From Octopus sinensis (Eukaryota), in the NCBI RefSeq assembly GCF_006345805.1, contig NC_043007.1, positions 64,294,001-64,358,000 of the forward strand: a stretch of 64,000 nt of DNA, written 5' to 3'. The number at the start of each line of letters is the position of its first letter. The stretch's first letter is position 1. This document shows, in pieces, positions 12,171 to 55,169 of the stretch. The notes under the pieces were generated by a model, which saw only the letters and a list, made by a program, of their open reading frames with translations, was not told the DNA's origin and did not search any database. Both the position numbers and the translations under genes were made by a program.

Positions 12171-12191
12171 CTAAATCTTTAAGGAATGAGG
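12171..12191 (+). CDS. Candidate 21-nt microexon of MARK/PAR-1
   Basis: Branch-like cattaac, very strong tract ttttctctttttttcccctctag| and a weak donor GG|gtatta. Open in phase 1-1: (A)KSLRNE. Confidence 0.35.
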
Positions 12192-13616
12192 GTATTATTA
12201 CAATTCTTTATTGTTCCTTTCAATTGAAGGCACGGACTTGATGCATGAAGCTATTAGATGTACTGAAGTAAAGTCAGAGGTTCTTTACATCAATTAGAAC
12301 CATTCCTTTTGTGCACCAAATAATAAATAAAAAAAAAGTTCTAACACATTGAGTAACTCAAAGGTCCATAAATTCACTGAAATAATGTACGTTTTGATGT
12401 AATGGAACAGGAAAGATATTAGTGAATTAGATAATAAGTTGAAATATAAATTATTGTATAATGGAAATCATTTTTACATAATTATTAAATACTAATTGGG
12501 AAATTAACATTTTTTGGTCCTCACTTTTCCTCTAGTTTTATATATAACGACAGCTATTCAAAACATTCATAACTAGAACATTCACCCAATCTGAATTCAC
12601 AAAATTTCTGTTTTGTTAATAGGTGGTTTATTCTTTTTCTTGGTGTGAGAACTCTTGGGTATCAAGATATAGATTGGTATAGAGCCCTATAAATAGCCAG
12701 GTTAAAGTGAGTGTGAGGAAATTATTGTTGCTGTGTGTATATTGAAAATCGTATATATAAACTTACTGGATATTATAAAGTGTTTGAGATTAGTAGTTGA
12801 TATGAAGCCTTTCATAATTATTACATTAAAATTACTCCATAAAGAAGTTAATATGTATGGAGATATCTTAACCAATGGCTCTGATCCTCTCTTTTTCTTT
12901 CTCTCTCAAATGCAGAATCCTTCAACTTAACTGTATTTGCTTGTTTTGTTCTATGTTAGATTAGTTCTAAAGGTTATATTTTCAATTGTGTTGATTGGTG
13001 TATTTTGTCTTCTGGCCATAGATGCATTTGTAACTTTTTTTTTTTGAAAGATAATCTTATTATCATAAGCAATTTTTGTTCATTAACTGTTTGAAAATTT
13101 GTTGTCAGAATGCATGGTTGTCTTCTTATATTGTTTTTATTTGACAGTCTTGATTAGTTCCACAACAAATATTTTTAAATGGACAGATAATACTTTGTTT
13201 TTAAATCAAGGGAAAATAGTCTGGTTATTTAGCTCAAATGTGCAGTAGACCTATATTTTTGTTAATGTATTGCTATTTCTCTAGACACAAATAAATATCA
13301 AACATATGTATACTGCATCTCACTACGAATTTAAACGATTGGTCTAAGTGGAACAAATAATTAAGAGTGAATATACTTGATATATTTTTTCAAATCTGAT
13401 TCACACATACACTCATTTGTGTATCACATAGTTTCATAGGCAATGCTTTTTTTTTAATGGTAACCAATTTTCCTTTTGTTCCCAGTCCCTTCCCTGCCCT
13501 TCCTTCTCAGATCTAACAACTTATAAGGAGGGAACTTCCATGGATAAACTGCTAATGAATTAATTTATCTTTCAGATCAATAATTTTCTTTTGAAAACCT
13601 GTTTTTCTTTCTTTAG

Positions 13617-13667
13617 TGTCCTCAACAGAGACAGGTTCCAACATAAATGGCCTACATCGCTATCAAG
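13617..13667 (+). CDS. Candidate 51-nt cassette exon of MARK/PAR-1
   Basis: Strong pyrimidine tract gtttttctttctttag| and donor AAG|gtgaga. 51 nt, open in phase 1-1, the phase required by the UBA exon: (V)SSTETGSNINGLHRYQ plus a final G that completes GAT. Confidence 0.6.
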
Positions 13668-16600
13668 GTGAGAAGCTAAGGTTTTCATGCTCTTCTTGAG
13701 CACCTCGGAATATTGTGCCAATTTCCAATTCTAGGGTCTTAGATCTTGTTCTCATTATCAGGATCTGCTTATCTTGATTCAGTGCTATTGGTAGGAGGTA
13801 GAGTGAGAGAGAGAAAGAGAGAGAGTGAGAGAGAAGAACCTGTGTTTTAACCTAGGTTTTAACTATCTTTCCCTATGTTTTTGTCTATCTTTTTGCCTCC
13901 TCATAATTGCTGGTATTAGCAATGTAGTTCATGCTGTAAATTCTATTTCCATGGTAATATGTATGTTTCTTATTTTCATAAAATAATGTGGGCCATTTAA
14001 ACATTTATAGAACATTAATTTATTCTGGAATTTTGAGAGTTTATTATTTTCTCTAGAAGTTTTAAAAACAAATGCAAATATAAATTGATATATTTGAAAA
14101 TGCATTCTCTTTAATCAAACCTTGTGTTAAGGCTGGCTATATTTGTTTTAGAAATAAATTATTTCTCAATGAGATTTTATCCCTGAATATGTTAAATGTC
14201 TGGTATTTTTGTTTATAAGTTAACTATATTTCGTTTTGTATTTTACTGAAAATAACTATAAAATAAGTATAATTTACTTTGCAAATACTTGTAATTTTCC
14301 TGTTCATTTAATTTGTCTTATACGGATTTCAGCAATGTTATTTTTCTGTTGAGTGTCTGTGCAAAAAAAATCATGTAAAAATAATTGTTCTTAGATAAAA
14401 AATTATAAACTTAAGTAATATCAGTATCACTTCAATTGTATTTTACATTTGTAAAGTGAATGCTTTTTGTAAAACAACTTCAATTTTTCTATAAAATATG
14501 AGTAGTTATGTATTTATTTATTAAAAAAAAAAAATTCCATACCTATCTTTTTCTGAATATATTGCTACTAAAGATTAGTGGTGTACTAAAGAAAAAAAAA
14601 GCTTTTAAATGGTTTTAAAAAATGTAGAGAAGTGGAAGGGAATCTTGAAATATTTGTAACTAGTTTAGTGGTATGCTTAGGCACATGGAGACACGACTTT
14701 TTCTGAACAAGTAGTTTTTGTTGCTATAGTTTGAGAAATAAATACAGTGAAAGAAAGAAAAATGTTCTTAAGATTTATTGTTACTAAATTAGAGATTTAA
14801 AAATCTTGATGTTAAGATTTGCTTTTAGTTGTGTGTGTGTCCCCTAACACTGATCACAGCATTTTTGAAGTGATGTTAGATTTGTCATATATGGATTCAA
14901 TTTCATCATGCCAAATTTTGTTCTTTCATTAAAGAACTGTAATTTGACAAATGTATTTGGTTGCCCTCTAATGCCATGAGTACAACTTCCATTTGCTACC
15001 CACAAAAAAAGGGGAGCACCATAACCCTGTATTTTTCTTGGAGTTGGATGCTTTTAGATTTGTGGAAGAAAGGGAATGCCTAACCTAAATGCCTGCAGGA
15101 GAGTGTAATCCACTAAAAGTACCTAAGTGCCAGATGGTAGTATTAAATCAACCACTGGATTAAATCTATCCAAGAATTCAGAACATGGAGAGCCAAAACA
15201 ATTACTGAAAGATATCTTGTCTAACATGTTGACAATTCCACTAAGTATTTCCTACCAATTTGTCGCCTAATAGATCTTCTCACAAGATCTCTCAGGAATA
15301 CAAAAGTACTTTGAGAGTGTGAGAGTATAGATGCTAAGTTCTCCTCAAACTGAAGAGTAGTTTTGTGCAGTTTATTTTGATATTTCCCTAGTTCATTCTG
15401 GTTCCTGAGAACTGTTGATTGTTGGAAATAAACTACCTCCATTATGTATATATCTGCATTTTAATTCAGAATATACACAAATAATATGAATTGATAAATA
15501 TAGAGGCATCCAGTTGTAAAAAAATTTTTTAGGCAAAGTGTAATAGACAGAAAGGAATGTGTTTCTTGTTTTATTAGATAGGATTAGCAGCTAGATTTCT
15601 TTCAAATTACAGCTTAGCCATCCTTCAGGGAAAAAAGAAGAAAAAAAACTGCGATGACTTATGTAGTCCTAGATCACTACTTCTGAAAAAGAACCTACTG
15701 TTGACCAATAGATCTATCCTATGTCTCCCTTGCAGCTAAATAAAAACAACAGGGCAAGCAGTTTGCTACTGTTACAAATGTAGCATGGATAGGATGGGAG
15801 TGCAAGCATACACAATCAGAATGATGATGATATTTTTTTTTTTTACCACTGCAGCCAAAGCCACATCCTGTCATTTTTTTTTTTTTGCTATTATTTGTGA
15901 TGTACACATCAAATGGCGAATTTTTGTTTGTTAGACATTGTTAGCTTCCTAATTCAACATCAAATTGTTAAAGCATAATCTACATAAATGTATCTATAAT
16001 AAGCTAAACACTAAGTATGATAGATCAACATGTGTTTATTTCATTTCTAGGTAAATAATAACAAAATCTCGGCAGCGTAAAGGTTAGCATACATGTCAAA
16101 ATTGTAAGAGATACAAGCATTTGGTTCTGTCCATTCTTAAATTACAAATTTAGATTAATTTACTCTAGATGTATATATATTTTTAATGATCTAGTTAGAG
16201 AAGAAAGGCCAATACACTTAATATTGTCTGTTTCGTGTAGTTTTACTGAAACTTATTTTGAATATCTTTTTTTTTTTTTTATATTTAATATAAGTTAGGT
16301 CTATGATATTTTCATTTGCTCTGCCACTTTGTTTTGAAAATTGCAGAACAGAGGTAAGGAATTACTAGTTATGAGTATAGAGAGAGACAAAAAGAAGAAA
16401 TAAACAGTAAAATAAATACAAAATTACTAAAATACAATTTAACCTCTTTGTGTGTATGTGTGTAAATACTTATCTCAGTATTCTAATTTCAATTGATATT
16501 GGGTTGATTTTGACGCTCATTCCATTAAGATTTATAAAATGAATACCAATAATAACTTGGTATCTATTCAGTTAAGTCTTTGTTTTCAGGAATGTGATAG

Positions 16601-23638: not shown

Positions 23639-23751
23639 ATATTATGGCTAGTATGGGTTATACCTTGAAAGATGTTGAAAACTCCTTGAGTCAGCAGAAA
23701 TATGATGATATCATGGCAACATATTTGCTTTTGGGACGAAGAACGTCTGAT
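23639..23751 (+). CDS. par-1: MARK/PAR-1 kinase exon, UBA domain
   Basis: Bounded by ttttcag| and |gtaagt, 113 nt, phase 1 to 0. Translates (D)IMASMGYTLKDVENSLSQQKYDDIMATYLLLGRRTSD, matching the MARK UBA pattern DIMxxMGY...YDxxxATYLLLGR. Confidence 0.96.
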
Positions 23752-24066: not shown

Positions 24067-24235
24067 TTGGAAGGCAGTGACCGATCTGGTAGCAACCAAT
24101 CTCTTCGGCACTTGCCGATGACTACGAACCGACCAACAACTGAAACTAATGCTAATACAAATCAGTCACCCAATCGTGTTACAAGGAGTCTTTCTGCCAC
24201 TAATCAGAAACCTCCTCGGCGTTACAGCCATGGAG
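24067..24235 (+). CDS. par-1: MARK/PAR-1 kinase exon, start of spacer
   Basis: Bounded by ttttag| and |gtgagt, 169 nt, phase 0 to 1. LEGSDRSGSNQSLRHLPMTTNRPTTETNANTNQSPNRVTRSLSATNQKPPRRYSHG resembles the MARK segment QSP..VQRS.S....RRYS. Confidence 0.94.
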
Positions 24236-24661
24236 GTGAGTAGATTGTTTGAAATTTTTTTTTAATCACAGTTTTATTTTTTTTTAACATACCACAAAAA
24301 TTGCTGATTACATCAACTTTTTATATTTTCATTCATTTTCCTGGCAGCAGGAGTGAGAAAGGAGTGTCTAACTTAATGCAAGGGTCTTGATTCATAAAGC
24401 ACCATTTTCTTGTTTAAAATGGCAAAAGATACACACATAAATAATGCAGGCTTCCACAGCCTCTGTCTGCTAAATTCCACTTATAAAATCTTGGTCAATC
24501 CAAGACTATAGTATGATATCTGTTGAAAGCTGTACAGTAGAATCAAATCTGTAATTGTGTGGTTGTGAAACAAGCTCCTTAATCATATAGCCATTCCTGT
24601 ACCCATTATCAAATGTTTCCCATGTGATTCATATCACCTGTTTCATTCATTCATTCATTCA

Positions 24662-24698
<37 letters not shown>

Positions 24699-26960
24699 CT
24701 TGCATTTTTAGACCGCTTATTGGAAGTTTTTATTGATGTTAATACTACTATAATTCTGTCATACTTCTATAATTAGTTTTTCATCAAGTAATTCTAATTA
24801 TTTTATTTATTGTTTATTTTTCTTAACATGTGGTAAATTTCTAAATCGTCAAAGTAAATTTGCAGAGATGTTATTTGTGCATTAGAGACAATGTTTTGCA
24901 AATTTTGCTCTGTCTCTATACTCTGAATCCAGATCCCACCAGAGTCAACTTTGCCTTTATCCATTTGGGAGTTAATAAGCATAGCACCACACCAGTGATG
25001 ATGCAGCCTCCTCTTCCTCTAGCTTTCACATCTGGGGAGATCAAAAGGGTATCTATGTGTGTTCGCAACCACATGGCCCCTTTAAACAGCAAAAGTATTA
25101 TTGTTCATACAGCTAAGTCATACTCAGTTGCAAGTGATGGTCATCGCTTATTCCCTGCTTAATTTTCATTATTTCTTCTGAGTTATTTTATACATTATAG
25201 GAACAAGTTAAGAAGTCATGAGAAAATAATGATACTTCTAAACTAAGATGAAAAAATTTCAAAATCAAGTCAGATGTAGTTCATTATATGTATATACTAA
25301 CAACAGGTTTTATGAATTGGTTTGAGGTTTGACAAACTAAAAATTATCATCATTATCTTAACATACATATTTCCTTTCTCATATGGTTCATTGAGGTAGA
25401 TTTTCTAGTTAGATGCCCTTCCTGTTATATTTTCCCATGGCCAGACATGTTTCCATGGAAGTTTAGAAATGAAGAACACTGCTTGTTTAAGGTTGAAGCT
25501 CATTTATAACTATCACATGTTGTCAAGACAGAGGTACACACCCCTGCATGCATGCAGAGCACACACATATACACAAAACAGGCTTCTTTCAGTTCTCATC
25601 TACCAGATTTGTTTACAAGGTTTTGGGCAGCTTAGGTTATAGTAAAAGATGTTACCCAAAATTCCACATAGTAGGACTGAACAAAATGCCATGTGGTTGG
25701 GAAACTTCTTGACTGCATAGCTACGGAATGTGCCCAGAGTGAAAGGCAAAGTTGACCTTGGTGGGAACTCTGGATGAAGAAATGTCATAAAGCATTTTTC
25801 TGACACTAGCAAGTTTGCCAGCTCGCCACCTTAAAAAAAATCTCAATAAAATCATGTAAGCACATTTAATTTTCAAAAAGATTTAAGGAGGGTTATTAAT
25901 ATAAAGTGAAGTTATTGTTGTTGAAATATCTTAGTCTTCTTGAATATTTTTTCTTTAAAGCCCTTTTAGCTTGAATGATGACCCCATACCCTCATCCCAC
26001 CCATCTTCAATGTTTTCACAGTTGAATGTGCTTCTTGTCAAAATGTTGGGAAGAAAACCGGTTTTATTTTTCAAGCAACTGAAGATAAGAGTTACATGCT
26101 TCAATAAGGAGCATAGTGCAATTATTTGAAGTGGTTGAAATTATGAGAATGTAGTTCTGCATGTCTAACAGACATTTGTAATCTTTTTATTGTCATTACC
26201 ATTACTAGTATTAATTTTAAAATTTCAAGTATAGCCCTGTCACACAATTGGTAGATACCTGATGAAAGTCATCATTAAGGTCATTGTGGAGTTAATGAAC
26301 CATGAATTTATATCAAGATAAGATGCTAAGAGTGAAGGAACCACAGGAGAACTGCTTCATCATTGCATTGTTCATTAGCTCCAAAAAATAAAGAACTAAA
26401 TTTCCTTTACCATAAGTTCCATAAGAATCTAGAAAAATTTTGGGATTAGGAATGACTATTGTTTCTCGTGTCTCCCTAATAAGAAACTGTTTCTTGTCAA
26501 TGCTGTTTAATCCATTAGCTACCATACACTGCCTTTAATTCAATTACATTTGAAAATGAAAAATTTAATAAAATGATTTTGACATTATTATTAAGCTAGT
26601 GTTAGGACATAAATTAATATGAAAATTTGATGGAAATGTTGATTCGGATCACTTTAAATATTGAGTTTGTATTATAAAACTAGGGGCTGGTAATATCGAA
26701 AAAGTTAAATATAATCATTGCATTTGTCCATCCTTGCTCCCCTCCCTTTATTAACACTATTAATTTTCTCATTCTGTTTTATACATATATATCATCATCA
26801 TCATCATCATTTAACGTCTGCTTTCCATGCTAGCATGGGTTGGACGGTTCAACTGGGGTCTGGGGAGCCCGAAGGCTGCACCAGGCCAGTCAGATCTGGC
26901 AGTGTTTCTACAGCTGGATGCCCTTCCTAACGCCAACCACTCCAAGAGTGTAGTGGGTGA

Positions 26961-27395
26961 TTTTATGTGCCACCGACACAGGTGCCAGACGAGGCTGGCG
27001 AACGGCCACGCTCGGATGGTGTTTTTATGTGCCACCGACACAGGTGCCAGACGAAGCTGGCGAACGGCCACGCTCGGATGGTGTTTTTATGTGCCACCAA
27101 CACAGGTGCCAGACAAGGCTAGCAGACGACCACGCTCGGATGGTGTTTTTATGTGCCACCGACACAGGTACCAGACGAGGCTGGCGGATGGTGTTTTTAT
27201 GTGCCACCGACACAGGTGCCAGACAAAGCTAGCAGACGACCACGCTCGGATGGTGTTTTTTTATGTGCCACCGACACAGGTGCCAGACAAGGCTAGCAGA
27301 CGACCACGCTCGGATGGTGTTTTTTATGTGCCACCGACACAGGAGCCAGATTAGGCTGGCGATGGGCCACGATTGGATGGTGATTGTTACGTGCC

Positions 27396-27397
<2 letters not shown>
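26961..27397 (+). repeat. GC-rich minisatellite, about 62-bp unit, about 7 copies, inside a SINE-like repeat
   Basis: Unit ttttatgtgccaccgacacaggtgccagacgaggctggcgaacggccacgctcggatggtgt starts at about 26961, 27023, 27085, 27147, 27196, 27259 and 27322; one unit is internally deleted. Confidence 0.95.
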
Positions 27398-28173
<776 letters not shown>

Positions 28174-28385
28174 TAAAATGGTAGGGGGTGGGGATTTTGC
28201 AATTCTCAAAAGTTATTTCCTATTAAAAAAAAGTTATTACAAGAAAGATTTCATCTTGCCTTTCTATTGAAAATGTTTTGTGAACTGTTGCCTTTTTATC
28301 AAAAGTTTTCATTTAAAAAATGTGTAATGAAAAATACATTTCTCTGAATGATAGACATTATTTTCTTTCCTCCCAATTATTGCAG

Positions 28386-28561
28386 GGCCTGCTGGACCTG
28401 GTAGTGCTACATCATCTTCACAGTCGCAGTCTTCGAGTTCTCATGCAACAAGAAGGCAAAACACAATAGATACTAATACTAATACTACTACAAAAGAAAG
28501 TACATTGAGTTCTCGAATGAAGACCCCTTCTGGTGGTAACATGCCTCTGGAGTCTCCCAAG
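28386..28561 (+). CDS. par-1: MARK/PAR-1 kinase spacer exon
   Basis: Pyrimidine tract plus tgcag| and AAG|gtttgt, 176 nt, phase 1 to 0. (G)PAGPGSATSSSQSQSSSSHATRRQNTIDTNTNTTTKESTLSSRMKTPSGGNMPLESPK contains the RQNTID motif known from invertebrate Par-1. Confidence 0.9.
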
Positions 28562-31858: not shown

Positions 31859-32037
31859 ATTAGTGCAAGTCCTGTTAGAATGTCGGTACCAAAAAAACCA
31901 AGTGGACCTTCTACAACACCAAAGAACAATGTTGTAAGTGGTTCTTCTCTAACACGAAGAAGTACTTTTGGACCTGGAGATAATAAGACAAGTATAGAAA
32001 AAAATAACAGAACAACTAATGGTCAAGACTACCGGAG
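31859..32037 (+). CDS. par-1: MARK/PAR-1 kinase spacer exon
   Basis: Bounded by ttgcag| and AG|gtaaga, 179 nt, phase 0 to 2. ISASPVRMSVPKKPSGPSTTPKNNVVSGSSLTRRSTFGPGDNKTSIEKNNRTTNGQDYR; LTRRSTF...NG corresponds to MARK MTRRNTY...NG. It is the tail of ORF 31766..32041. Confidence 0.9.
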
Positions 32038-34620: not shown

Positions 34621-37220
34621 AGAAAAATCAAACAGCATTTCAACTCGGTGTGAGTGTATGTGTGTGCGTGTACAAGGGAAGTATGGGAATGTATGTGAAC
34701 ATTGACAAGTGTATTAATTTGATTTACCATCCATCAACTAGTAATAATGATAATGTACTGATATCTTATGGCCTAGTAAATTGCATTACACTGTTTCTAC
34801 TTGGTGTATTTGGATACTATGAAGTCTTTCCAAATTTATTATACAATCTAGCATTGTATCATTTTCACTGCATGGCACTAACACAAATCACTAAAATTTG
34901 GTTCCAGAAATTTTTTAAATATTGAATATTTTAATGTCAGTAGCACATAATTGCATTCTAATGGCTTGATTATTTGGAACAATTGTCTAAAATGTAATTA
35001 AAACTTTTTTTTTTTAATTATTACAATGCATAATTAATGGAAAATAGAGAATGCTATGAGGGTAGAATTTTATTCAATTTTCCTAACATAGTATGCATTT
35101 TTCAGAAAATTATTTTGAAATCATTTAAAAATGATAACAATTTTGTTGCATTTGCCATTCAAGATTAGCTGCTTCTGCTATTCAAGCTAATTGTTTGTTC
35201 CAGAAATAATTCTCATGTACAAAATTTGAACTGATTATTTTTTTTTTTTCAGTGAAATGGATATATATTTTAATTTCTATCATTATTTTACAGTAATACA
35301 AAGCACATTATTTAGTAACATTTTCTCTAATACATTATTATATAACTAGTATGCTGAGTTTCCAGCATATTGTCTATTCATGTTATGAAATTTAATACAT
35401 CTGGTTGATGAAAGAGGAAAATCTAAATGTGCATCAAGTCTATAAATTTGCTTTAGCTTAGGATGATGAAGCTGCTTCTACTTTGGTTGGAAACTTATTT
35501 CAAGAATCTGTAACTCTAAACACAAGAAAATGGTATACAAACTTTTGAATATAGTTTTCAGTTGGAATTTTGTTTTTAAATATTTTCCATTTATACACTG
35601 ACTAATAGTCATAATTAGGAAAATATTTACTTTCATTTAAAATGAAAATTTTCAATTTGATATGCATGTAAACTTTGTAGACCAAACTTTTTCTTCTACT
35701 CCCTAATTATACATCAACTAACTAAACTATTATCCAACAAGTTACTAACTCATACTCATCTAGTGTTATGTGGTGGCTATTTAAACTTTCATGAAGATGG
35801 GGACTTTATGAAAATGTTAAAAAGAAAACTCATGTGCAATGCTTACTTTAACCAAAAAAGTAAAACCTTAAATTGCTTTCCTTTTTAATATTCTGAATTT
35901 TTATCACTCACATCAGAGGTTGATGGAGGAAATTTGTCCTGTCAAATGAATTTAATAGATTTGTTCAGATGTCCTAATTATTGATTTCTATTTGGAAAAA
36001 ATACTTTTTAAAGGACTGGTTTTTATTTTGTTTTTTGTTTACCTGAAATGCTGTTGAATTCTATTGAGTAAATTGGTAATTATTTTTGTTTGTCATATTC
36101 CAGTTTTGACTCACAGCAAATTCTTGTAACAAATCACTTTTACTTATTTTCACTTCTGGTAATTACATTAATTTCGGCCCTGCACAAACCATTTAAAGTC
36201 TGCTGGATATCTTTACATCGAGTCAATATTTACAAAAACACAAACTCTAAGCTTTCTCTAAATAACATATTTTATTAACATTAATTTTTACTCACATAAA
36301 CTACTTGTAAAAATCAAGTGATTTACATATTTTCTAGATTACTTCTACTTTGTTTATACAAAATTAGATATACTCATAAGTTTATTTATTAGATTCTCTT
36401 ATGTTCTGTACTGAACACTGAAAAAAACATGGTTTTCAAGTAGTTTAGTTTTTAATTTCTACCCAGCAAATTGAACTAATATTAATGGTATATAAACTTC
36501 TTTAATAGCTCTGAGGCAATCAGAAAGAATATGTTACTTGATCCAAAAATAGGTGACATTTCTTTCCATTGAAGATTATTTGGTCTTTCTTTGACTGCTT
36601 CCAGTTCATCTTGGAATTGTTTTGCCTCTTATATTTCCCACAAGCCTATAAAAAGTTTAACTTTTTGTAAATAAAAAAGGAACCAGATGAGTTCTTTTAG
36701 TCAAGATAATTGTCTTCTACAAATGATGTTAGATGAAATATTGTTTGTTTGATTTTCCGTTGGGCCAAAATCACTCTGTTCATATAATTCTACACAAGCT
36801 CAGCATATCAAAAGTTCAAATGCTTCTCTTAGAGTTTCTTCTGATTCCATTAAGGAACACAACACATGTATTTCAAAAATAGGAATATTAGAATAATCAA
36901 ACTGGAGAAACATCAAAAAATAGTTTTACTGCTAATTACTTAACACGTTATCATTATATCAACACTTTTCTATCACATTGTTATTATTATACTGTCTGAT
37001 GGCTCTGGTTTTGCTGCAAAGATTCTGTGGTTTTAAACTTTTTGTTTATGCAAGAAATTCTACAAATACAGAAGATCAAATATATTATGCTACTCATCAA
37101 TGCAACAGCTATTCAGATTTACCATATGGATTGATTGGCCTTCATCAGTGTCTCTGCCTCATTTCCTATTAGTAACTCTGCCTGTTGTAATGAACCTGAG
37201 AATCTGCTTTTCTCTTCCAG

Positions 37221-37370
37221 CCATATACCAAATTCTACTTCCAATCCATCTTCAGAGCCCCCATCAGCAAGGCCTAAGGGCCATGTAAAGTCAGCCAGCA
37301 CATGTCAACCATCACGAGTCCCAGATTTGCCACCTATTAGTTCAGACACATCTGATACCTATAGGCCAAC
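37221..37370 (+). CDS. par-1: MARK/PAR-1 spacer exon, symmetric and probably a cassette
   Basis: Bounded by tctcttccag| and |gtaagt, 150 nt, phase 2 to 2. (S)HIPNSTSNPSSEPPSARPKGHVKSASTCQPSRVPDLPPISSDTSDTYRPT resembles MARK1/2 ARP..HQKSMS....LPP......RP. Confidence 0.88.
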
Positions 37371-37636
37371 GTAAGTACAGATTGGTGCTACAACTGCTAG
37401 AAAAATTAGTTCCTTGCCATGGCCGATTTGAATTTTGATGGTTCTTTGGATTTTTGAAATATGTTGCCTTTGTATTTCCACCACCTCCTACATCGGATGA
37501 ATATTCCCTCCTCCCTAAATATTCTGTCAATTGTCTGCTTTTTATCTAACACTCTGCACCATCTTGCATGATTCTTTGTTGAGGACATTTCCAATCCTTT
37601 ACATCATTTTCATTATTTCTCTCTCTTTATAATTAC

Positions 37637-39792: not shown

Positions 39793-40020
39793 ACCGGCTC
39801 AAGGGAAAACTTCAATTCCCTTATCACCTGCTGCAAACAAGCCTTTATTCCGAGGCACAGCAGGCCGAAATACATTCCACGGAGGCCACATTAGGGACCG
39901 ACGGCAGTTCAACCAATATAACGGCCCTGGTGTTCCTGGGCATACTCAGGATACCACAACAGCCGGACAAGTAGCTCGAGTGTCTTTCCTGAACAAACTA
40001 ACTTCAAAATTTAGTCGAAG
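39793..40020 (+). CDS. par-1: MARK/PAR-1 exon with aPKC site and membrane-targeting helix motif
   Basis: Bounded by ttttcag| and AG|gtaagt, 228 nt, phase 2 to 2. PAQGKTSIPLSPAANKPLFRGTAGRNTFHGGHIRDRRQFNQYNGPGVPGHTQDTTTAGQVARVSFLNKLTSKFSR matches MARK RG..SRSTFH...R.RR...YNGP...FSKLTSK. Confidence 0.96.
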
Positions 40021-43000
40021 GTAAGTGGCTAAGGGAGTTACTGCCTATTTACTGACACTACATCTGTGAAGGGAGAAATATTGCTGTATCTGACTCATGG
40101 CCTTCAACCAGCTCCCAGAGTGAAGCTTTTTTTTTACATTCCCCATCTCCCATTTCTTAGATTGGTTACTCACTGTGTTGTGACTGATTATTATTTTATA
40201 TTTGTCACTATGTGACTAACTTTTAGTCTCTTCCCATAGACGGATTTTTAGAGTCTAATACTATGTTGATCTTTTAGTCAGCACTGTTCAACAAAGGCTT
40301 TGTAACAAGAACAATAAAGTATTTTTAAAAAAATATATATTATTCTATCGTAGTTTATCTTTTTCTTTGAGTAGATTTAGACATAAAATTCTAAAGAAAA
40401 ACCTTTTTTGTTTTTCTTTTTCTTTTTTTGTCTTCTTCTGAACGGTAAACATCAGCCTATATTATGGCAACTTGAATTGGTTTGTAAAGTATTTCTGCAA
40501 ATGAAGTTCTTTACATATCAAATAATGTTTTAAATTATTTTATTGCTGGCCTGGGATTATTAATTTATTTACTCTTCAAATTTGTAAAAACCTTACACTT
40601 CACATTTAATTTTAGACACGTGTTTCTGAAAGGGTTGTTTTCTCCACTTCTTGATTTATTAGTTTAGAGTTTGGGATTTATGGAAATAAATGAGCTGTCT
40701 GATGATAAATGAATTGGATTCTTGGATGAGGCACTTTACTCTATCAGTCCCAGACTGTTTAGATACCTTCAAGAAGAGTTGAAATGAGATAAAACAAAAT
40801 CTTTCTCTCTCTTCCATCCTCTTTTTCTTATGCAGCATACACACAAATTAATGATATACAATGGTTATATTGTAAGATATTTTGTTGTGGTTTCATTCAT
40901 CCCCATAGACATTGCATTATGTGAACAAATAGCTTCAAATTTTTGTCTGAGAAGCTAAAAGATGTACCCTATCTTATTTGCAGTAAGAAATGAACCAAAA
41001 TGTTTGTTGAATCCAAGATTTAAAATATTGTTTGTTTCATGGCACTTTGGGAATGTGTAGCAAGGTACACGCATCCATCCATCCATACATACAGAAAGAC
41101 ACAAACACACCTCTCTCTCATTTATTTCTACATGTATAGTTGTCAGTCTTTCAATGATTAGGATTCACTTGTTTGATTAACCTTCTTCAGAATTACTTTG
41201 TCAATGACTGAGCATTCTTCTACAGATTCATTTGTCTTGAATGTAATTCTCAGGTGGAATCAGTGTGATACAGTGTGTGTGACAAAACTGTACCTTTTGA
41301 ATCACATGTGCAATCTATCTGATGTACACAGTTTCAGTCACCCAATTTTACTTACAAGATATGAGTTATCTCAGTAAATGACACACAATGGGATAGAGCC
41401 CAAGACCTCATGAGTGCAAAGAAACCTTAACAGCTCTGCCATAATATACTTTACGTATTTTATGTATACATATAACAATTTACACACACACACGTTGTAT
41501 GGAAACATCTTTTTCTCCTTCTCATATGCATATGTATTTGCATCTTATTGTTTGTTTGCTTCTATGTCTGTATTTTGTTGTGTGTTTTGTGTTTGTTTCA
41601 TTTCTGTAAGGCTTATTGAAGGCTTATTTTACCCTTTTCTCTGGTTCAAATGAAAATTCAGTTATTGTGATTTGTGTATTTGTAATGTGATTTCCTGTTC
41701 TTAGGACTACAGTATTCTACAAGTTTTAAGAGTCCTTGTATTCTAATATATTTATATATTGTTATATTTGATCTAATCTTACAAATATAAACTTGGGGAT
41801 TTTTTTTTTTTTGATAAATATTTATCAGCAATGGTGATGCACAATAACTGAGGCAATGGTGTTACAATGCTCTGTCTTAGGTTCAAACATTATGTTTGTT
41901 TTCCTAGTAAAGGCACATAGCTTTGCTTGTTTCAGCTTGCCTTATTGACAAACTGGTTCTATTTCTATTTCATTACTGCATATTTCACTCTAAAATCAAA
42001 TGATTGAACTAAAATTTCCCTCAGTCTTACATGAATGAGACAACTGAAAATTGTCTTTGAAAGGTAAAAGATAAGCATTTTTTTGTGTTAGAAATGAAAT
42101 CTATCCTTCATCAGCGATCTGTGTTTATTTTTACTGTGAAAATAATCTGTACATATGCATGTGTATGTGGGTGTAGACTTGTTTCAAACTTGCAATATAA
42201 AATTTAGATCACCTCCATTAGAGGATAGCTTATCTCCCCTTACAATTTTTTTTCTCTTTTTTTTATTTGCTTCGACGTTCAATACTCTCCCCACTTTAAA
42301 AAAAAAGTTATGTGCAGACTAAATTCTCTGTACATGGGAAGAACTTGTAAATGAATAGTTTTAGCATAATTTACATATTGCTTAATTTATTTATAACCAC
42401 CCACACATGCAGTCACACCAACCTTAACAGCATTTTCAGTTTTAGATGACAAAATTAAAACTCCAAAATTTATTATTCAATTGTAGTCTCTGTATATGTC
42501 TTATTTTAGAATAAGAAGTAATAATAATGAAATAATTTTTTTAAAATATTACAATACTTTGCAAAATATTATGAAATGAATTTATTTCAATGATGCAATT
42601 ACATTAAAATCTTTTGATGAGAGTGTAATAAATTTACTGTTAAAAACGTTTTTGTATAGTACTTAATCCACATAATTTACACACACACACACACCACTGT
42701 TTTGGATTTATGTACCAAATATTACTTGAGAGATGAGATGAGTTTAGTAAATTTAGATAGATATGCTTTTGGAGCTTGAGGTTTTACTGTTAAATGCAGT
42801 TGACTACTTTATTAGTGGAATATGAGTGTAATATGTTGACACCTAAGTTGACTGAAGTTATGTATATATGCAGTGATGGCAGTAACTGGACAAGATGTTC
42901 AGACCCTGATTATCCTTATCCTCAATGCCACAGTGGGTGCAACTTTAGAGCTTGGAAAATTTTGGGTGATGTGAATAGACTTTAATGGGTAATTTATAAG

Positions 43001-44755
43001 ATGAACTGAAATATATGCATATCACACATTTTGTATGTTGCCTAATTCAAACTTTTTCTATATAACTTATAATCTCACTGCACAACATATTATATAATCT
43101 TATAGTTATTTGCTGTTGGCAATCCATATTTCTAAATTTTAATTGTATGATGGTTGATTCAGCCTACCCGTTTTGATTTGAATGCTACAAGGAAGTAAGT
43201 CATTCTACACTGTCTGGCAGATTGTATAATAAATTATAGCTGCCTGCCTACATAGAGCTGCCAGAGATGCAGCATGAACTTGGTTTCTTTTTAACAGCCC
43301 TATTTGAGCAAAGTTAACTAGGGCTTCCTAAGCCAACTAACATCTTAGCTCTGCGCGTGCGCACGCACACACTAACATACACACACACACACCTCCCTGC
43401 CTCTCAGGCATTCACTCCAAAATAGTAAATGGCTACAAGTATTTCTTACTACCACAGGTTGTCTACTATACAAGAATACTTCTAATCAGAAAGATATTGC
43501 TTAAATATTTTAGGTGTATGTATTTTGACTTACAGTTATTTAGATGTATAAGTAATGCCATTGTTACCTTATTGTCTAGATTTCTGTACTTGCATACATT
43601 GGATGTGTCTGGAATACAGCACTTCTTCATGCATCTGAAACCTTATATTGCCCCAAATCTGTTACAGTTGATTCTATTCTAAGTCTTATTTGATGTGACA
43701 CCATCAACAACTCTTACCTCTTTTCCACCTGGTTTCACTCGACTACAGAAGGCATGAAAGGAAGTGCTAAGGTCAAATGTTTAAAAACCGAAGGGAAGAA
43801 GCAAAGAAGTAACACATGATAGCTTTAAGGATTGTAATAAGATACTCTATCTAATTTTTGTCAGCATACAAAAATACTGTAAAATGTTGTGCATAGTGTG
43901 TGCAGGCTGCATTTGCACATGTTTATATGAGTAAATAGATACACACATTCACTATGCAGAGAATAATGGAAGTAAATAGGTTTTTGCATAGCTACAACTG
44001 AAATCTGTACTATATCATCCTCATCTATCATCTGTGTTCCATGCTGATATTGGTTATATATATGTGTGAAATTTTATTTTCTTTCATACTGTTTACATTA
44101 GTTTTTCTGAGTTACAAATAACTTAGCCATTTTAGCTGTTTACCTATTGTTGGAGCAATTGTTTTTATATAGCTGATTGCCCTTCTTTTTTAGTATTACT
44201 TTGAAAGATTAGAGCCTGTTATAAGTTGGGTAGAATGGAGCTATATACTTATGCATTTCTTGGAAGCATAACAATGAGTGTAACACAATTCTAGGTCTTT
44301 ACTGTGTACACATACTTGCACAAGATTACTTATTGTTATACCTTTTTCTGTCTCATTATTGACATTGTTGATTCAGTGGAAACTTTCTGGAGTATGAGAT
44401 CCAGGTGTGTATGAAAACTGCTTTATTATACACTGGCCAAAATAAGTTTAAAACCAGTGATGACAATTTCATTCCTTCATTAATATATTTTTAACAAAAC
44501 TGTATAAAATTATTTTACTTTCTACAGTATATGCAGAATTTTTTTTCTCTTTGGAATGATATAGGAATTAGATATCTTTTTACAATTCAAATAATTTTAA
44601 TGTGCAATTAATTCAAATGATTAGAAATTCTCAGCAAAATAAGTTTAAGACTGTACCAAGATTATGCAAATTAATAAATTAAAAGGGTGGTCATATGGCT
44701 GGTCGTACTGCACTATTTTGTTTAATAATTGAGCATTGTTACACATTAATTCAGT

Positions 44756-45755
44756 ATGGGAAAGTGTCATAGTATCAGTCCAGTTATTAGATCAGAGATT
44801 GTGTTACTTGATCAGCAAAATGTGTCCTTCATGAACATTAGCAAGCGATTAGAATGCAGCAAAATGGCTTGTGTTCAAGCATGGAAGCTTTATCAAAGCA
44901 CTAGTCAATACAAAAATTGGCAAAGAATGGGTGCTCTGAAAAAGACAACAGTACAGATGAATCGGGAATTCATAGGCTCTCTGAAGGTAACCAAATGCTA
45001 ACAGCAGTGGACATTTGCAAGCAATTATCTGATGCAACTGACATCAGCTTTACACCACAAACTGTCAGAAACTGCCAAAAAGAACTTGGACTGTTTGGCT
45101 GGATTGCTTGAAAGAAGTTGAAAATTTCTGAGATGAACCAGCAGAAGCAGATCAAGTTTGCTAAAAGTCATATTGAGTGGATGACTGAAGACTGGGCAAA
45201 AGTTCTTTGGAGCAACAAATCCCGCATCTGCAATTTTGGATCTGATGGAAAGACTTATGTTCGACACTGTCCAACTGAAGAATTCCATCCTAAGTATGTC
45301 AAGAAAACTGCGCAAACGGGGTGGGGGTTGAAGGTAATGGTGCTGGTCCAGTTGTTAAGGTTGATGGCAGACTGAACAGTGTAGGCTATCTGCAATTAGT
45401 AAATGAAAATGTGCAGCTATATTTAAATAAGCAGATGCCACCGGAATCTATTTTCAAGCAGGACAAATGCCCTGTTCATAAGGCTAGAAAAGTTTTGCAA
45501 TATTTTGAGTGCAATAATATGGTGGTTATTGAGTGGCCTCAGCAGAGCCTAAATTTGAATCCAATAAAAAACTTATAGAGTTATGTTTCTAAAAAGAGTT
45601 CATGCTAAGAAACCAACACATTTGTTCCAATTATATAATTTTATTGAAGAAATATGGCAGAACTTTCCAAGTGATTTTTGTGCTTATTTGTCGAACTCCA
45701 TGTCCTCCCATTGTATGGTCATAATTGAAAATAATGGCTATGGAACTAGATACTA
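44756..45755 (+). pseudogene. Tc1 transposase pseudogene (DD34E type)
   Basis: Split over ORFs 44756, 44917, 45118 and 45321. Motifs WAKVLWSNKSR (from WSDES), IFKQDKCPVHKA (QDNAPxH) and WPQQSLNLNPIKNL* (WPxQSPDLNPIENLW) show frameshifts, stops and mutated catalytic D/E residues. Confidence 0.92.
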
Positions 45756-45889
45756 ATAATAAATTTTTTGTTTGTTGATCATTTGTACCAGAAATTTCCA
45801 ATTTAAACAAAATAATCCAAAATAATATTAGTACACTTGAAAATTACTATTTTTAAATCTCACAACGAGAGATATTCAGCAACAGTACT

Positions 45890-48753: not shown

Positions 48754-48786
48754 GAGTAAATTGAGTCTCCGCCAATTGGAACTGAA
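48754..48786 (+). CDS. Candidate 33-nt microexon upstream of KA1
   Basis: attaac..ttctacttcctgaacag| acceptor and AA|gtaata donor. Phase 2-2, open: (R)SKLSLRQLEL. Confidence 0.5.
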
Positions 48787-51272
48787 GTAATATGATGACG
48801 TCGTCTCTCGTAAGATGGTTGCTGTCTCTTTGTAAGTGTTAATGAGTGTATTTTCCAACCCCTTTCTCAACCATCACACCTTCTCATCATCTTCACCACC
48901 ACTGTTATTACAGCGTTTTGTTACCTCTCAAATAGTGTTTGTGTATATATGTATAGCTGTGTATGTGTGTTGGTACATACATGCACTTTATACACATGCA
49001 CTCATGTGCCACACATACACTTTAATAATACAAGCTTCTTTGTTTCTTTTTAAGTTGTGTGTGTGTTCAAATTGTTTGAATTTTTCCAATTTTCTAATCA
49101 TAAAACTCTGCTTCATTCTTTACCATTTAGTTTCATTAAATACTTCTCAACACCACTTAGGAAGATATGGGTTGGAATTTCTATTGTTTTCTTGAGAATT
49201 ATTATTTCAGATTCCAAGAAACATGTGCACGATGTCTGTTTTCCTTATATTTATGGGTAATCAATTTTTTCATTTGTTTCCTTATAGTTATTAGTATATC
49301 CTTTATTAAAAATTTTTCAGTTATGTTGAGTTGCCTTCTCTTGAATCTTATCTATATTCTGGCAATTCCTTGTTTGTCTTATCAATTAATTTGTGATGAC
49401 TTAGCAATTGTGTCTTTTTCCTCAGTTTCAGTAGTTTATTGGATATATATTTGAAAGTCTTGTTTTGTTTTGGGTTTTTATTTACACTTTTACTTTTGGA
49501 TTTAAACTTAATATTATTCTCCTGCCTACCTTCTTTTAGCAGCAGTTAACTATATCCAATAGTTGTTGGAAAAACAAAACAAAAACAAAGAGAGTGAGAG
49601 AGAGAGAAGAAAAACATTCTTAGATCATGTTCAGTATTCTTCATATATTTCAATAATAATTTAAAGCAGTGAGGAGTCTTAGATGAGAAACGGTCTATTC
49701 GACCAACATCAATTTTATATCTATCAGAAATATTATTGTGCTAACATAACGAAAATTTTAATTGGTGGTAGATATGAGTGTCATTTGGCCCCTCCAACCA
49801 AGCCCTAGTCAAGCAGTCTTACAATCAATATTCTTTGAATTGCAACTATCCCATCTTTTTCAATCCTTTTCAGACTATATGATTCAGTGCCTTCCTTTCT
49901 TTAGCATAGCAAGGATATGATCTAAAAGAGATTTGGCTTCTGTTTTTAGCGAGCCAGATGCCTGCATAGAGACTGCTCTGTTGGCTCATGGGAAGATGTT
50001 GGGGATGAGTGGTTGGCTGTGCCTAGCATCTTTTCTTTTTGTAGGGCTTTTCTTTGCTTTTATTATCTTATCTAGCTACTATTTTGCTCTTATGTTGTTT
50101 TCTCTGCATATCCTGAAGTGAAGTTTTTACAAATTTGATACAAAACTAAATGCACATAAAATCCAAATTCATTCATAAACTTTGCATCAGAAGGAGAAGA
50201 ATTCATGATGTATTCTTCTGTTTCTTGATTCTGTCCAATTGTTACAGATGTCAAATGTTAGGGTTATTTTTCTCCCTTTTATCTGAGTATTTTTTTATTT
50301 ATTTCTTTTTAACATTTAAAATTTTTTGTATGTGTTGGAATAATTTTACATTTAAACTAAATAAACAAATTAAGTTTTATTTTATAGATTTGTAAACTGT
50401 TTCTTTTTTATATTTTTTATTTTATTTTTATTTATTTTTTTCTTTTGTAGCTATTGTTTTTCTTAATATTAACATAATTTGTGTATTTTGCTTATGTTCA
50501 TGTTTGAAAACATATTTATTAGTCTGAGTTGCCATGAATTTGTGCTGTCTTGTGAGATGACTGCCCACTCAACATCTTACACAACAGATTATAAGGGTTA
50601 GGGAATAAATCATAATTGGTATTTGCTAATTTGTAATATTTATATGCACAGACACATTAATTCTTTTTTCCCATAAAACACTCAAATCAGAATTTGAAAA
50701 CTATTCTTACGTTCAGTTTAGTTCTTTCCATTCTGATAACCATCCTTGATAACCCCTGAGAAATTATTTAAATAGCTTTTTGTAAATAAAATGTAGCAAA
50801 TATACTTTGGTGAATAACTTGTAAACTAAACTTGTGTTTTCATAATTTGATGTAAACTTTTATTTCAATAAAGATTAATAATAATAATAAACTAATTAAT
50901 AATAATAATAATAAATAAATAAATATATAGCATAATAATCAGTTCTGTAATCTATATACAAAATATATATTTCCGTCTAGATCATTGCTGAAAGAAGGGA
51001 AGGCATCAATAACTCAAATACAAACTAGTTATAAGCTGCTTTATTGTTGTCTTTTCATTGCATCACAGTGAAAACTAGTAAACTCACTTGTTGACTAATC
51101 CAGTCCCTGTAGTTTAGTGTTAAGTAATGCTTTTGCTTTACCAATATGGCAACACCCCACCCGGAGATTTGTATGATTTTTTTTCTCCCATAAGAATCTT
51201 TTAGGCTAATTTTCTTTTAAAATATCTCGTTTTTACTCTTTATAAGGTGACAGCTTTTTTAATTTCTTCCAG

Positions 51273-51308
51273 TGGTGACCCCAGAAGGGCATACACAGAT
51301 ACCCCCGG
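51273..51308 (+). CDS. Candidate 36-nt microexon upstream of KA1
   Basis: ttttttaatttcttccag| acceptor and GG|gtgagg donor. Phase 2-2, open, GC-rich island in an AT-rich intron: (S)GDPRRAYTDTP(G). Confidence 0.62.
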
Positions 51309-53173
51309 GTGAGGAAACCTTTTTGAATAGCACACTAGTCCACTAGGGCAAGACATTTCATATTGCTTGTCCATCTTTTTACCCTCTAAATTTTCTTTCT
51401 TTCTCATAAATCTTTTTAAAAATATAATTTCCGAATGCAATTATTTATTTTGATAATTATTCTAAATTTATTGTACAATGTTTTAGAATATTTTATTTCT
51501 TCTTGTAATATGTCTTTACTCTCGGATGTTCTGCTCTACCTAGGTTCTTTTCCTCATGCAATCTCTGATCTTTGCGCTCTATCTTTCTATTTTTCTTTTC
51601 TCTTTCCTCTCCCACTAATTAACTTTCAATAACTGAGTCTGTCTTTACCTCCACTAACTCTCTGCAATTGTAGATTTTTCAAAGCTAAATCTGCTTGTAA
51701 CTTACATGTTTCTCTAACAGTATCCTCATGCTTTTTTTGCTTGAAACAAACTTTCTCAGAGATTTTTTTTTTTAAACGTTTTCTTTATATTTTTCTTGCT
51801 CTCACCATATAATTGATCCACTAACTTAGAAAGCATTCAGTTCCCAACAAAAGGGAGCAAATAGATATTCCTAATTGAAATATTAAAAAATTACTGTTGT
51901 TTCAAGTCTGAATTTAGATAGCATCAAGCAAAACTAACATTGAATGCTGCAAAATGGATTACAATACTGGCAAGCTGAAACTGCTTCTAGTTTAGGTTTT
52001 AATCAGACTACTTCGGGAATATCATGTTGAAACTTCTCATCTACTTTACTTTCTAGCTTAAACATTTCTAATTTTGTCTATGTAACCAGAAATTGTTATT
52101 AGCTGATGCCAGAAAGAGACAAAGAGACTGTAATCAGTTTTTTAATTTCTAATTAGAATTAATTTGCTTGACTTGTGTCATTAAAAATCTTAAAATTTCT
52201 TCAGAAATTATAAGAAATTATGGGTTGATAAAATAATACCAGTAATAGAATAAATCAATTACATCCTCTGCTAAAGTTTGAGGCCTTGTGAAAATATTGG
52301 AATAACTTTCATTATTATATCTTCCAATTTCAACTTCTTATCATTTGATATATCAATTATTAGTACTATTGTGTTACAGTTCCAAACTCATTGAAGTGAA
52401 GCTATGAAAGAAGATTGAGAATAGGGAGAATAAGAAGAAAAGTAATTGCTTGCTGAGAACCTGCCGTAAATTTCTACCTGCATCTTAGATGTCAATCCCC
52501 CACCCCATTTTCATTTTTTGTCTTCAAAATTGTAAAGTTTAGATGAGGTTGGAGGAAATAGTGAGGTTCATATAAGTCTTATTTACAGCATGGAAGTTAC
52601 TTTTATAAAACATCCCATAACTGAGGTTTGATTTGTGAGCACTGTAAAAGTATGTATAAGAGTAAGAAAAGATATAATGGTTTGGTGTATGTATGTTAGA
52701 TTCTAACATTGGATCCAAACACTTCAGTACACTATTTATTGATCACAGACTTATAAATAAAAGGAAACCATTTACAATTTGGTTATGCAAATTGTTACAT
52801 ATATAGTTACTTCATTCAACATAGGTAAAATCTATATTGCTCTGGATTGGTAAATAAGGACTCACAGAAAAAACCTTTCACAAAATAGAAAAGAATAAGC
52901 CAGCATGGGCAACGGATGTTAAATGATGATGATGATCTGTGGTTAAGAAGTTTTCTCTACATGCACACAACACCTTGAGCAAGTGTTTTTTTACCATAGT
53001 TTCAGTTTGTGAGTGGAATTTGGTAGATGGAAACATATAAAGTGTATGTGTGTCTAGATATCTTGAAAGATAGGAAGGACAGATGAAAGAAAACTCTCAA
53101 CACATTTTGTTGAGTTTATATTTATTTGTATTAAAAACTTGACTCAAAATTAACATTACTTGAATTTTCACAG

Positions 53174-54660: not shown

Positions 54661-55146
54661 TATATACGCACACACATGTACATACACATATTTATATGTT
54701 TATGTGTATGTATTGTAGGTATGTGTGTGCATATATATATATATGTGTATATATTTATATACATATATGTGTACATACTTTTATATATGTGTGGAGATGT
54801 ATTTGTATGTATGTTTGTATTTAAATAGATATACGTCATTTTATGTGTGCATTTTTATGTGCTCAATGTGCAAACTAAACAAAGTATCTAATCGCCTTTG
54901 GATACTTTTTTAATGTCATCAAGTAATACTTTCTACCCCTATATATCTTCCCCTCCTCTCTCTCTAATTTTCTGTTTCTTTTTTATTTCTTTTTCCTCTT
55001 TTCTACTGTTTTCTTCCTCCCCACTCAACATTTTCTGATTTTTTTCCTTCTCTTTCTTTCGCATGTAACAACTAACTTGTATAAGCATATGCCAGGAGAT
55101 TTTGTGCATGTGCATGCATACATATATATGCATTTGTATATATTTA
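54154..55146. repeat. About 1-kb diverged inverted duplication centred on a TA/CA microsatellite
   Basis: For example cacaaaatctcctggcatatgctta..caagttagttgttaca (54196-54239) against tgtaacaactaacttg..taagcatatgccaggagattttgtg (55064-55105). Complementarity continues inward to about 54600/54720. Confidence 0.9.
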
Positions 55147-55169
55147 CTTGATGCATGTTATATGTCCAG

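What the first reader, a model, noticed from the sequence alone, without database searches (positions are those of the whole stretch)
13617..13667. Hidden 51-nt in-frame exon that would insert 17 aa at the start of the MARK UBA domain
Seen: a strong 3' splice site, an AAG|gtgaga donor, a length of 3n and an open frame in phase 1, the phase needed by the UBA exon (G|AT). It ends in G, so the Asp codon is regenerated: V-SSTETGSNINGLHRYQ-D-IMASMG. Known: in MARKs this junction (..RI|DIM..) falls at the first UBA helix, and the UBA packs on the kinase N-lobe and affects LKB1-dependent activation. I know of no cassette at this position in vertebrate MARKs. Inference: a lineage-specific splicing switch that uncouples or remodels the UBA-kinase contact.
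Basis: partly seen in the sequence, partly recalled or inferred. Interest (0 to 1): 0.75.

Follow-up and report, generated by a model that had tools for sequence, protein, structure and literature searches.

The report
Optional exon splits octopus kinase's UBA
The octopus cell-polarity kinase MARK/PAR-1 has a real, optional 51-base exon, kept in cuttlefish and already in database gene models, that adds 17 amino acids at the start of a small regulatory domain and likely loosens that domain to tune how the kinase is switched on.

Summary
The exon is real. Window 13617-13667 has strong splice sites, the right phase and an open frame. RNA reads join it to the UBA exon (about half of junction reads in run X22, plus a contig in X8); two other runs mostly skip it. 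It is not hidden: 7 of 8 retrieved O. sinensis isoform models contain it. Its 17 residues are 16/17 identical in cuttlefish and were found only in coleoid cephalopod proteins. It is one of three switches at this junction: a 21-nt microexon (12171-12191) and a mutually exclusive pair of linker exons upstream of the window give eight forms, all seen in gene models. The intron lies at the start of UBA helix 1, also in vertebrate-type MARK3 fragments. Wasps/bees and aphids add 4-5 residues at the same intron through alternative splice sites, so the exon is lineage-specific but variation at this site is not. The likely effect is a loosened, still docked UBA that tunes LKB1-dependent activation; this is untested and the structure models were too poor to decide. 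No paper on it was found. New variant of a known kind; interest 0.42.

The parts
13617..13667 (+). 51-nt cassette exon, phase 1/1, adds VSSTETGSNINGLHRYQ between linker (..RI) and UBA (DIM..)
   Evidence: sequence; joined to UBA exon in X22, X8; in 18 stored proteins, all cephalopod-named or cuttlefish-like
13597..13616 (+). polypyrimidine tract and 3' splice site of the 51-nt exon; nearest upstream AG at -43; no TGC in -30..-3
13668..13673 (+). 5' splice site GTGAGA
12171..12191 (+). 21-nt cassette microexon, phase 1/1, adds AKSLRNE; TGCATG 51 nt downstream; seen only in Octopus models
   Evidence: not seen in reads (one search lists no loose end for a direct join to the UBA exon)
23639..23751 (+). 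UBA exon (rest of helix 1, helices 2 and 3)
   Evidence: (E 2e-9 to MARK3)
24067..24237 (+). first spacer exon (codon-level bounds)
   Evidence: (loose ends behind the UBA exon)
28388..28561 (+). spacer exon (codon-level bounds)
31859..32035 (+). spacer exon (codon-level bounds)
37219..37371 (+). alternative spacer exon (absent from P0030)
39794..40021 (+). spacer exon ending in the basic ..LTSKFSRR stretch
51271..51309 (+). short alternative exon before the KA1 exon (which lies just beyond the window end)

Best explanation
This is an optional, conserved 51-nt exon of the octopus MARK/PAR-1 gene that puts 17 residues between the first turn of UBA helix 1 and the rest of the domain, which likely loosens the UBA without undocking it and so would tune LKB1-dependent activation. 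Shown: the exon, its inclusion and skipping, its conservation, and its place (human MARK2 T329|E330). Inferred: inclusion moves the near-invariant D/E-x-x-R-I turn 17 residues away; the insert's end (LHRYQ) takes its place with Gln where 56 of 57 insert-free junctions have Ile; helix 3, which docks on the N-lobe, is unchanged; the Ser/Thr-rich first half forms a loop that lengthens the linker. With the 21-nt microexon (+7, +24) and the A/B linker exons this gives a graded set of linker-UBA variants from one gene.
For: Splicing in and out: (X22, X8 in; X23, X24 mostly out), estimated inclusion about 0.4-0.7 in X22 and 0-0.35 in X23/X24. Conservation: 16/17 identical to cuttlefish against 232/263 for the spacer; 14/17 in another unnamed contig; 17/17 in Argonauta. 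Position: Pfam UBA match shrinks from profile 2-37 to 8-37 with the insert; PDB alignment places the gap at RI|DIM and RRT|ELM; helix 1 is given as residues 329-335 and helix 3 as the N-lobe contact in PMC5019223 (passages). The displaced positions are near-invariant: R 57/57, I 56/57, D/E 57/57 of distinct insert-free junction strings. This region matters: replacing MARK2 308-330 with GGSGGS abolished activity, and the kinase without UBA was not phosphorylated at T208 (PMC6890249 passages). Inserts of 4-6 residues at the same intron are common in insect models, with both forms in Nasonia, Cotesia, Sipha and Cacopsylla, which fits tuning more than switching off.
Against: No activity, stability or binding data exist for any insert form. 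That the insects tolerate inserts here could equally mean the site is neutral for activity. In SAD-A, substitutions on the linker and the helix 1-2 loop had little effect while helix 3 mattered (PMC4686854 passage). The difference between samples rests on a consensus and an agreement figure, not on counts per isoform; the X22 pattern was reproduced in only 5 simulations, and X23/X24 cannot be told from zero inclusion. Tissues are unknown. The joint between the upstream exon and the 51-nt exon was not read in raw reads; it rests on gene models and full-ORF contigs.
Confidence: 0.5

Rival explanations
1. The insert is a conserved interaction or phosphorylation loop (Ser/Thr-rich first half) beside the common-docking site; kinase activation is unchanged but partners or location differ.
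For: 16/17 conservation includes the polar first half that no helix-replacement model needs; it sits next to the CD site and linker, where cofactors and 14-3-3 are proposed to bind (PMC2604893 passages); helix 3 is untouched.
Against: The insert separates the near-invariant R and I from the rest of helix 1, so a UBA left fully unchanged is unlikely; no partner is known.
Confidence: 0.27
2. Inclusion unfolds or releases the UBA and gives a kinase that LKB1 cannot activate: an off or dominant-negative form.
For: Loss of UBA or of the 308-330 linker kills MARK2 activity in cells; the core Ile position becomes Gln.
Against: About half of junction reads in one sample carry it; insert forms dominate the retrieved bee and aphid models, though model lists favour long isoforms; all helix 2-3 residues remain.
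Confidence: 0.15
3. A tolerated, functionless exon: splicing noise at a permissive intron.
For: Many unrelated inserts occur at this intron across protostomes.
Against: Frame, length and 16/17 residues are kept between octopods and cuttlefish, better than the spacer; inclusion reaches about half.
Confidence: 0.06

Closest known systems
Vertebrate MARK1-4 kinase-UBA module (PDB 2HAK, 5KZ7, 2QNJ, 5ES1)
   Same: Kinase, CD site, linker, UBA, KA1; same RI|D junction; MARK3-type genomic fragments show intron-like sequence right before DIMVGMG, so the intron position appears shared.
   Different: None of the 20 MARK construct sequences has an insert (two alignments viewed, match lengths consistent for the rest); the octopus gene offers 0, 7, 17 or 24 extra residues and two linker versions.
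Insect par-1/MARK2-like isoforms with +4/+5/+6 residues at the same junction (Nasonia, Bombus, Cotesia GESAK; aphid VCRVT; psyllid GLLS; Folsomia DAIKCI)
   Same: Same intron, in-frame optional insert, core Ile position mostly lost; both forms in one species.
   Different: Unrelated sequences; genomic read-through fragments show an alternative donor in Hymenoptera (P0590) and an alternative acceptor in aphids (P0524, P0525, P0531, P0550), against separate cassette exons in cephalopods. Seen only as database models; no paper found.
Neural microexons (SRRM4/eMIC class; definition recalled)
   Same: Short, frame-preserving, conserved, in a structured domain of a neuronal signalling protein.
   Different: 51 nt is at the upper limit of the broad definition; no TGC just upstream; tissue unknown.
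UBA/AID-dependent regulation in MELK, SAD/BRSK, AMPK
   Same: UBA-type domain on the back of the kinase controls activity (PMC3724675, PMC4686854 passages).
   Different: There the control is by fixed contacts or ligands; here the domain's first helix is altered by splicing.

Membership tests
MARK/PAR-1 kinases | N-terminal kinase domain with KLDT activation loop | tested here: met
   motif per PMC6890249 Discussion
MARK/PAR-1 kinases | UBA domain after the kinase | tested here: met
   E 2e-9 to MARK3; Pfam UBA match is below its curated cut-off in both forms (18.5 and 13.0 bits against 22.4)
MARK/PAR-1 kinases | C-terminal KA1 domain | tested here: met
Cassette exon | canonical splice sites, frame-preserving, both included and skipped in mRNA | tested here: met
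Cassette exon under selection | orthologous exon kept in frame in distant relatives | tested here: met
   16/17 in Sepia, 17/17 in Argonauta; Nautilus not sampled
Neural SRRM4/eMIC microexons | UGC motif in the upstream pyrimidine tract | tested here: not met
   no TGC at -30..-3 for the 51-nt or 21-nt exon; exon A has one at -10
Neural SRRM4/eMIC microexons | neural-specific inclusion | not testable with these tools
   sample labels are coded
Splicing switch of kinase activity | isoforms differ in activation or activity | not testable with these tools
   needs bench assay
Splicing switch of kinase activity | insert changes the kinase-UBA structure | tested here: inconclusive
   AlphaFold2 models at mean pLDDT 39.7 and 37.9
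Mutually exclusive exons (upstream pair A/B) | adjacent, homologous, same length and phase, one per transcript | tested here: met
   both 100 nt, 64% identical, 472 nt apart; one copy per cephalopod protein; 5 bivalve models hold both joined by read-through
Exon born by duplication of linker exon A | significant similarity to exon A | tested here: not met
   DNA p 0.03 by shuffle but 24 of 650 intron windows score as high; protein p 0.29

The most novel reading that the evidence does not exclude
The intron that cuts UBA helix 1 is an ancient control point of PAR-1/MARK: cephalopods (two cassette exons), wasps and bees (alternative donor) and aphids (alternative acceptor) independently evolved optional inserts that displace the invariant D-x-x-R-I turn, making UBA docking and LKB1 activation a splicing-set dial, with eight linker-UBA forms from the single octopus gene used by tissue.
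Probability: 0.3. Interest if true: 0.7.

Novelty: new variant of a known kind. Interest (0 to 1): 0.42.

Why it matters
What the MARK UBA domain does (aid to LKB1 activation, brake, or folding support) is still argued, and the evidence comes from deletions and point mutants. Here are natural, conserved variants that split its first helix by 7, 17 or 24 residues, with independent 4-6 residue versions in insects, including species open to genetics. They make a clean test set. They also show how a lineage with apparently one MARK gene could get by splicing the variety that vertebrates get from four genes. The exon itself is already in databases, so the gain is the interpretation and the cross-phylum pattern, not the discovery of the sequence.

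Tried and rejected
AlphaFold2 of full-length P0016 (with insert) and P0001 (without): mean pLDDT 39.7 and 37.9, even the kinase domain poor; the best models put a helix at 335-344 (LHRYQDIMAS) against 318-327 (DPKRIDIMAS), which is a hint only and not used as evidence; no fold search was run on them. Origin by duplication of exon A: not supported. SRRM4-type UGC and RBFOX motifs: none near the 51-nt exon; TGCATG occurs 23 times in the 33-kb intron. The scallop +1 residue goes only with exon A in Pecten and is not counted as a cassette; the +1 in P0059/61/65 lies in the CD region; five bivalve models with +41 to +51 hold both linker copies and are taken as model errors. A Fisher test on assumed counts (p 0.007-0.03) is not relied on, since the counts were inferred. 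No reads were laid on the 51-nt exon itself or on exons A/B, so the upstream joint and per-isoform counts remain open. No relatives' genomes were held, so the orthologous intron could not be aligned. Earlier findings of the scan: none. Murphy 2007 and Jaleel 2006 were not held; only their titles were seen in reference lists.

Full report
Observation. The 51 bases at 13617-13667 follow a pyrimidine tract ending in TTTAG and are followed by GTGAGA; in phase 1 they read VSSTETGSNINGLHRYQ and end in G, so the Asp of DIM is restored. The UBA exon is 23639-23751. The preceding exon lies upstream of the window, so the exon sits in a 33,169-nt intron. Under a simple splice-site filter 3 candidates pass in that intron and this one has the best donor.

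The gene. Kinase exons lie upstream, spacer exons inside and the KA1 exon just beyond the window. The product is a MARK/PAR-1 kinase. Eight isoform models named Octopus sinensis map exon by exon, letter for letter, on this region. A search of the genome with the KA1 exon and with linker exon B found this gene and two divergent copies on contig C9540; those have tiny introns and look like parasite DNA (see noticed in passing), so this is probably the only octopus MARK gene, within the limits of a best-candidates search.

The exon is spliced in and out. Four runs were laid on the UBA exon. No read covered the intron flanks. Before the exon, X22 has 62 loose ends whose consensus follows the 51-nt exon in the 24 columns nearest the joint and exon B in the 6 farthest (agreement 0.63); X23 (42 reads, 0.76) and X24 (53 reads, 0.77) follow exon B in all 30 columns; in X8 an 83-nt contig (depth 99.9) joins the 51-nt exon to the UBA exon, beside another branch of depth 107.5. 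Mixture estimates give about 0.4-0.7 inclusion in X22 and 0-0.35 in X23 and X24. These are indirect: the tool gives one consensus per place, the X22 pattern was reproduced in only 5 simulations, and exon A could explain all the disagreement in X23/X24. The raw-read runs differ from the window at one synonymous site in all reads, so they come from another individual or sister species. Tissues are not given.

It is already annotated and it is conserved. Among retrieved named models, 7 of 8 of O. sinensis, 3 of 10 of O. vulgaris, 1 of 1 of O. bimaculoides, 1 of 1 of Argonauta hians and 3 of 4 of Sepia pharaonis contain it; so do 3 of 4 unnamed cuttlefish-like proteins from contigs of 2.5-4.2 kb, which must be spliced (15 of 18 members of the main cluster were listed). 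The insert is 16/17 identical to Sepia, 14/17 to one unnamed contig and 17/17 to Argonauta, against 232/263 for the spacer and 240/245 for the kinase. The octopod-decapodiform split is roughly 270 million years old (recalled). Of 466 proteins stored by then, 18 carry the insert, all cephalopod-named or cuttlefish-like; none of the snail, bivalve or arthropod proteins does. Nautilus was not sampled.

Two more switches at the same junction. A 21-nt phase-1 microexon at 12171-12191 adds AKSLRNE; it was seen only in Octopus models and not in the reads. The upstream linker exon exists as two 100-nt copies, A and B, 472 nt apart and 64% identical (G000:C11:64283798-64283897 and 64284370-64284469). 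Using both would shift the frame. They differ in the CD site (EDDE against EDKE) and across the linker, and both types occur in scallops, mussels, oysters, abalone and snails. All eight combinations (A or B; +0, +7, +17, +24) occur among the Octopus models, though models can combine junctions that no single molecule holds.

The site. The gap aligns at RI|DIM of MARK1 and RRT|ELM of MARK2; with Gly336 and Tyr351 from PMC5019223 and Glu353 from PMC3724675 (passages) this is T329|E330 of human MARK2. PMC5019223 gives helix 1 as 329-335 and helix 3 as the N-lobe contact; the Pfam UBA profile matches from position 2 without the insert and from 8 with it. So the intron falls at the start or first turn of helix 1. 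In 57 distinct insert-free junction strings the residues just upstream are D/E 57, R 57 and I 56. The 17-residue insert puts L, Y and Q there. PMC6890249 (passages and Discussion) reports that MARK2 without UBA is not phosphorylated in the activation loop and that replacing residues 308-330 with GGSGGS abolishes activity. Exons A/B encode that whole linker and the cassettes extend its end.

Not unique as a switch point. Of 466 proteins 445 could be parsed: 289 have no insert; 72 hymenopteran-type have +4 (GESAK/GESTK), 8 psyllid +4, 36 aphid-type +5, 2 Folsomia +6, 1 Littorina +28. Both forms occur in Nasonia (5 and 1), Cotesia typhae (4 and 3), Sipha (4 and 2) and Cacopsylla (7 and 1). These samples are biased towards inserts because the query had one. 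The best 150 of 404 representatives matching the UBA exon are mostly genomic read-throughs: one runs from the upstream exon into GESA, showing an alternative donor; four have VCRVT directly before the aphid UBA exon, showing an alternative acceptor. 24 are vertebrate MARK3-like by sequence (unnamed; label from likeness): 23 have intron-like sequence or a fragment end before the first Asp, indicating the same intron, and the one spliced fragment has no insert. So different lineages reach the same result by different splicing routes; independent origin is inferred. Absence in vertebrates was not properly tested.

How it likely works. Inclusion separates the D-P-K-R-I turn from the rest of helix 1. 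The insert's last residues probably extend the helix in its place, lacking the conserved Ile and Arg, while the Ser/Thr-rich first half loops out; helices 2 and 3 are unchanged, so the domain can still dock but is probably less stable. That would change how readily LKB1 activates the kinase (0.5). Rivals: a docking or phosphorylation loop with unchanged activity (0.27), a full off form (0.15), noise (0.06).

Literature. Ten full-text searches (terms on MARK/par-1 with UBA and splicing, microexon with octopus or par-1, cephalopod with MARK, par-1 with mutually exclusive exons) found no paper on an exon or insert at this junction; the library lacks most subscription journals. PMC3303723 lists Drosophila par-1 among genes with mutually exclusive exons without saying which (one passage). 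A 2026 preprint (10.64898/2026.09.05.749416; passages) analysed tissue-specific exons in O. bimaculoides without naming this gene in its text; its supplements were not seen and may list the exon. PMC2604893, PMC4686854 and PMC2222250 were seen as passages.

Verdict. Observation confirmed; interpretation partly supported. A real, conserved, alternatively used cassette exon at a structurally sensitive point of a well-studied kinase, already in automated annotation, apparently unstudied, and part of a wider pattern of optional inserts at this intron. New variant of a known kind; interest 0.42.

Noticed in passing
G000:C11:64283798-64283897 (L003 end) and 64284370-64284469 (L002:370-469): Mutually exclusive pair of 100-nt exons for the kinase end, CD site and linker (EDDE against EDKE); both types occur across bivalves and gastropods, so the pair looks as old as these mollusc classes. 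Exon A has a TGC at -10 and a 122-nt AG-free stretch upstream, a possible neural-exon signature. Exon B dominates in X23 and X24.
   Followed up: partly
window 12171-12191: 21-nt microexon (AKSLRNE) with a TGCATG 51 nt downstream; in 10 Octopus models, not in the Sepia or Argonauta proteins retrieved.
   Followed up: partly
L022:1590-3705 and L023 (G000:C9540): Two about 98% identical copies of a divergent MARK gene with introns of about 24-27 nt and 42% GC, likely DNA of a dicyemid kidney parasite in the assembly (mean dicyemid intron 26 nt, PMC2222250). It has the same phase-1 intron at the UBA start, 24 nt long and open, so retention would add 8 residues at the same site.
   Followed up: partly
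window 37219-37371, 48755-48787, 51271-51309; L016:298-316: Further alternative parts: a 51-residue spacer exon, an alternative last exon that drops KA1 (P0022; P0020 also ends early), a 13-residue exon, and alternative acceptors at the KA1 exon.
   Followed up: partly
P0526, P0541, P0576, P0580, P0584: Five fly-like genomic fragments share (S/A)ENV directly before the UBA exon, a possible conserved alternative acceptor at the same intron in Diptera.
   Followed up: no
P0137 (Littorina saxatilis isoform X23): A 28-residue insert at the same junction in one snail model, unrelated in sequence.
   Followed up: no
window 44750-45756 and 55069-55887: Broken transposon-like reading frames inside introns (Tc1/mariner-like and GIY-YIG/LINE-like by recalled motifs).
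   Followed up: no
window 26800-28220: A tandem repeat of about 60-70 nt units followed by a very long (TA)n tract.
   Followed up: no
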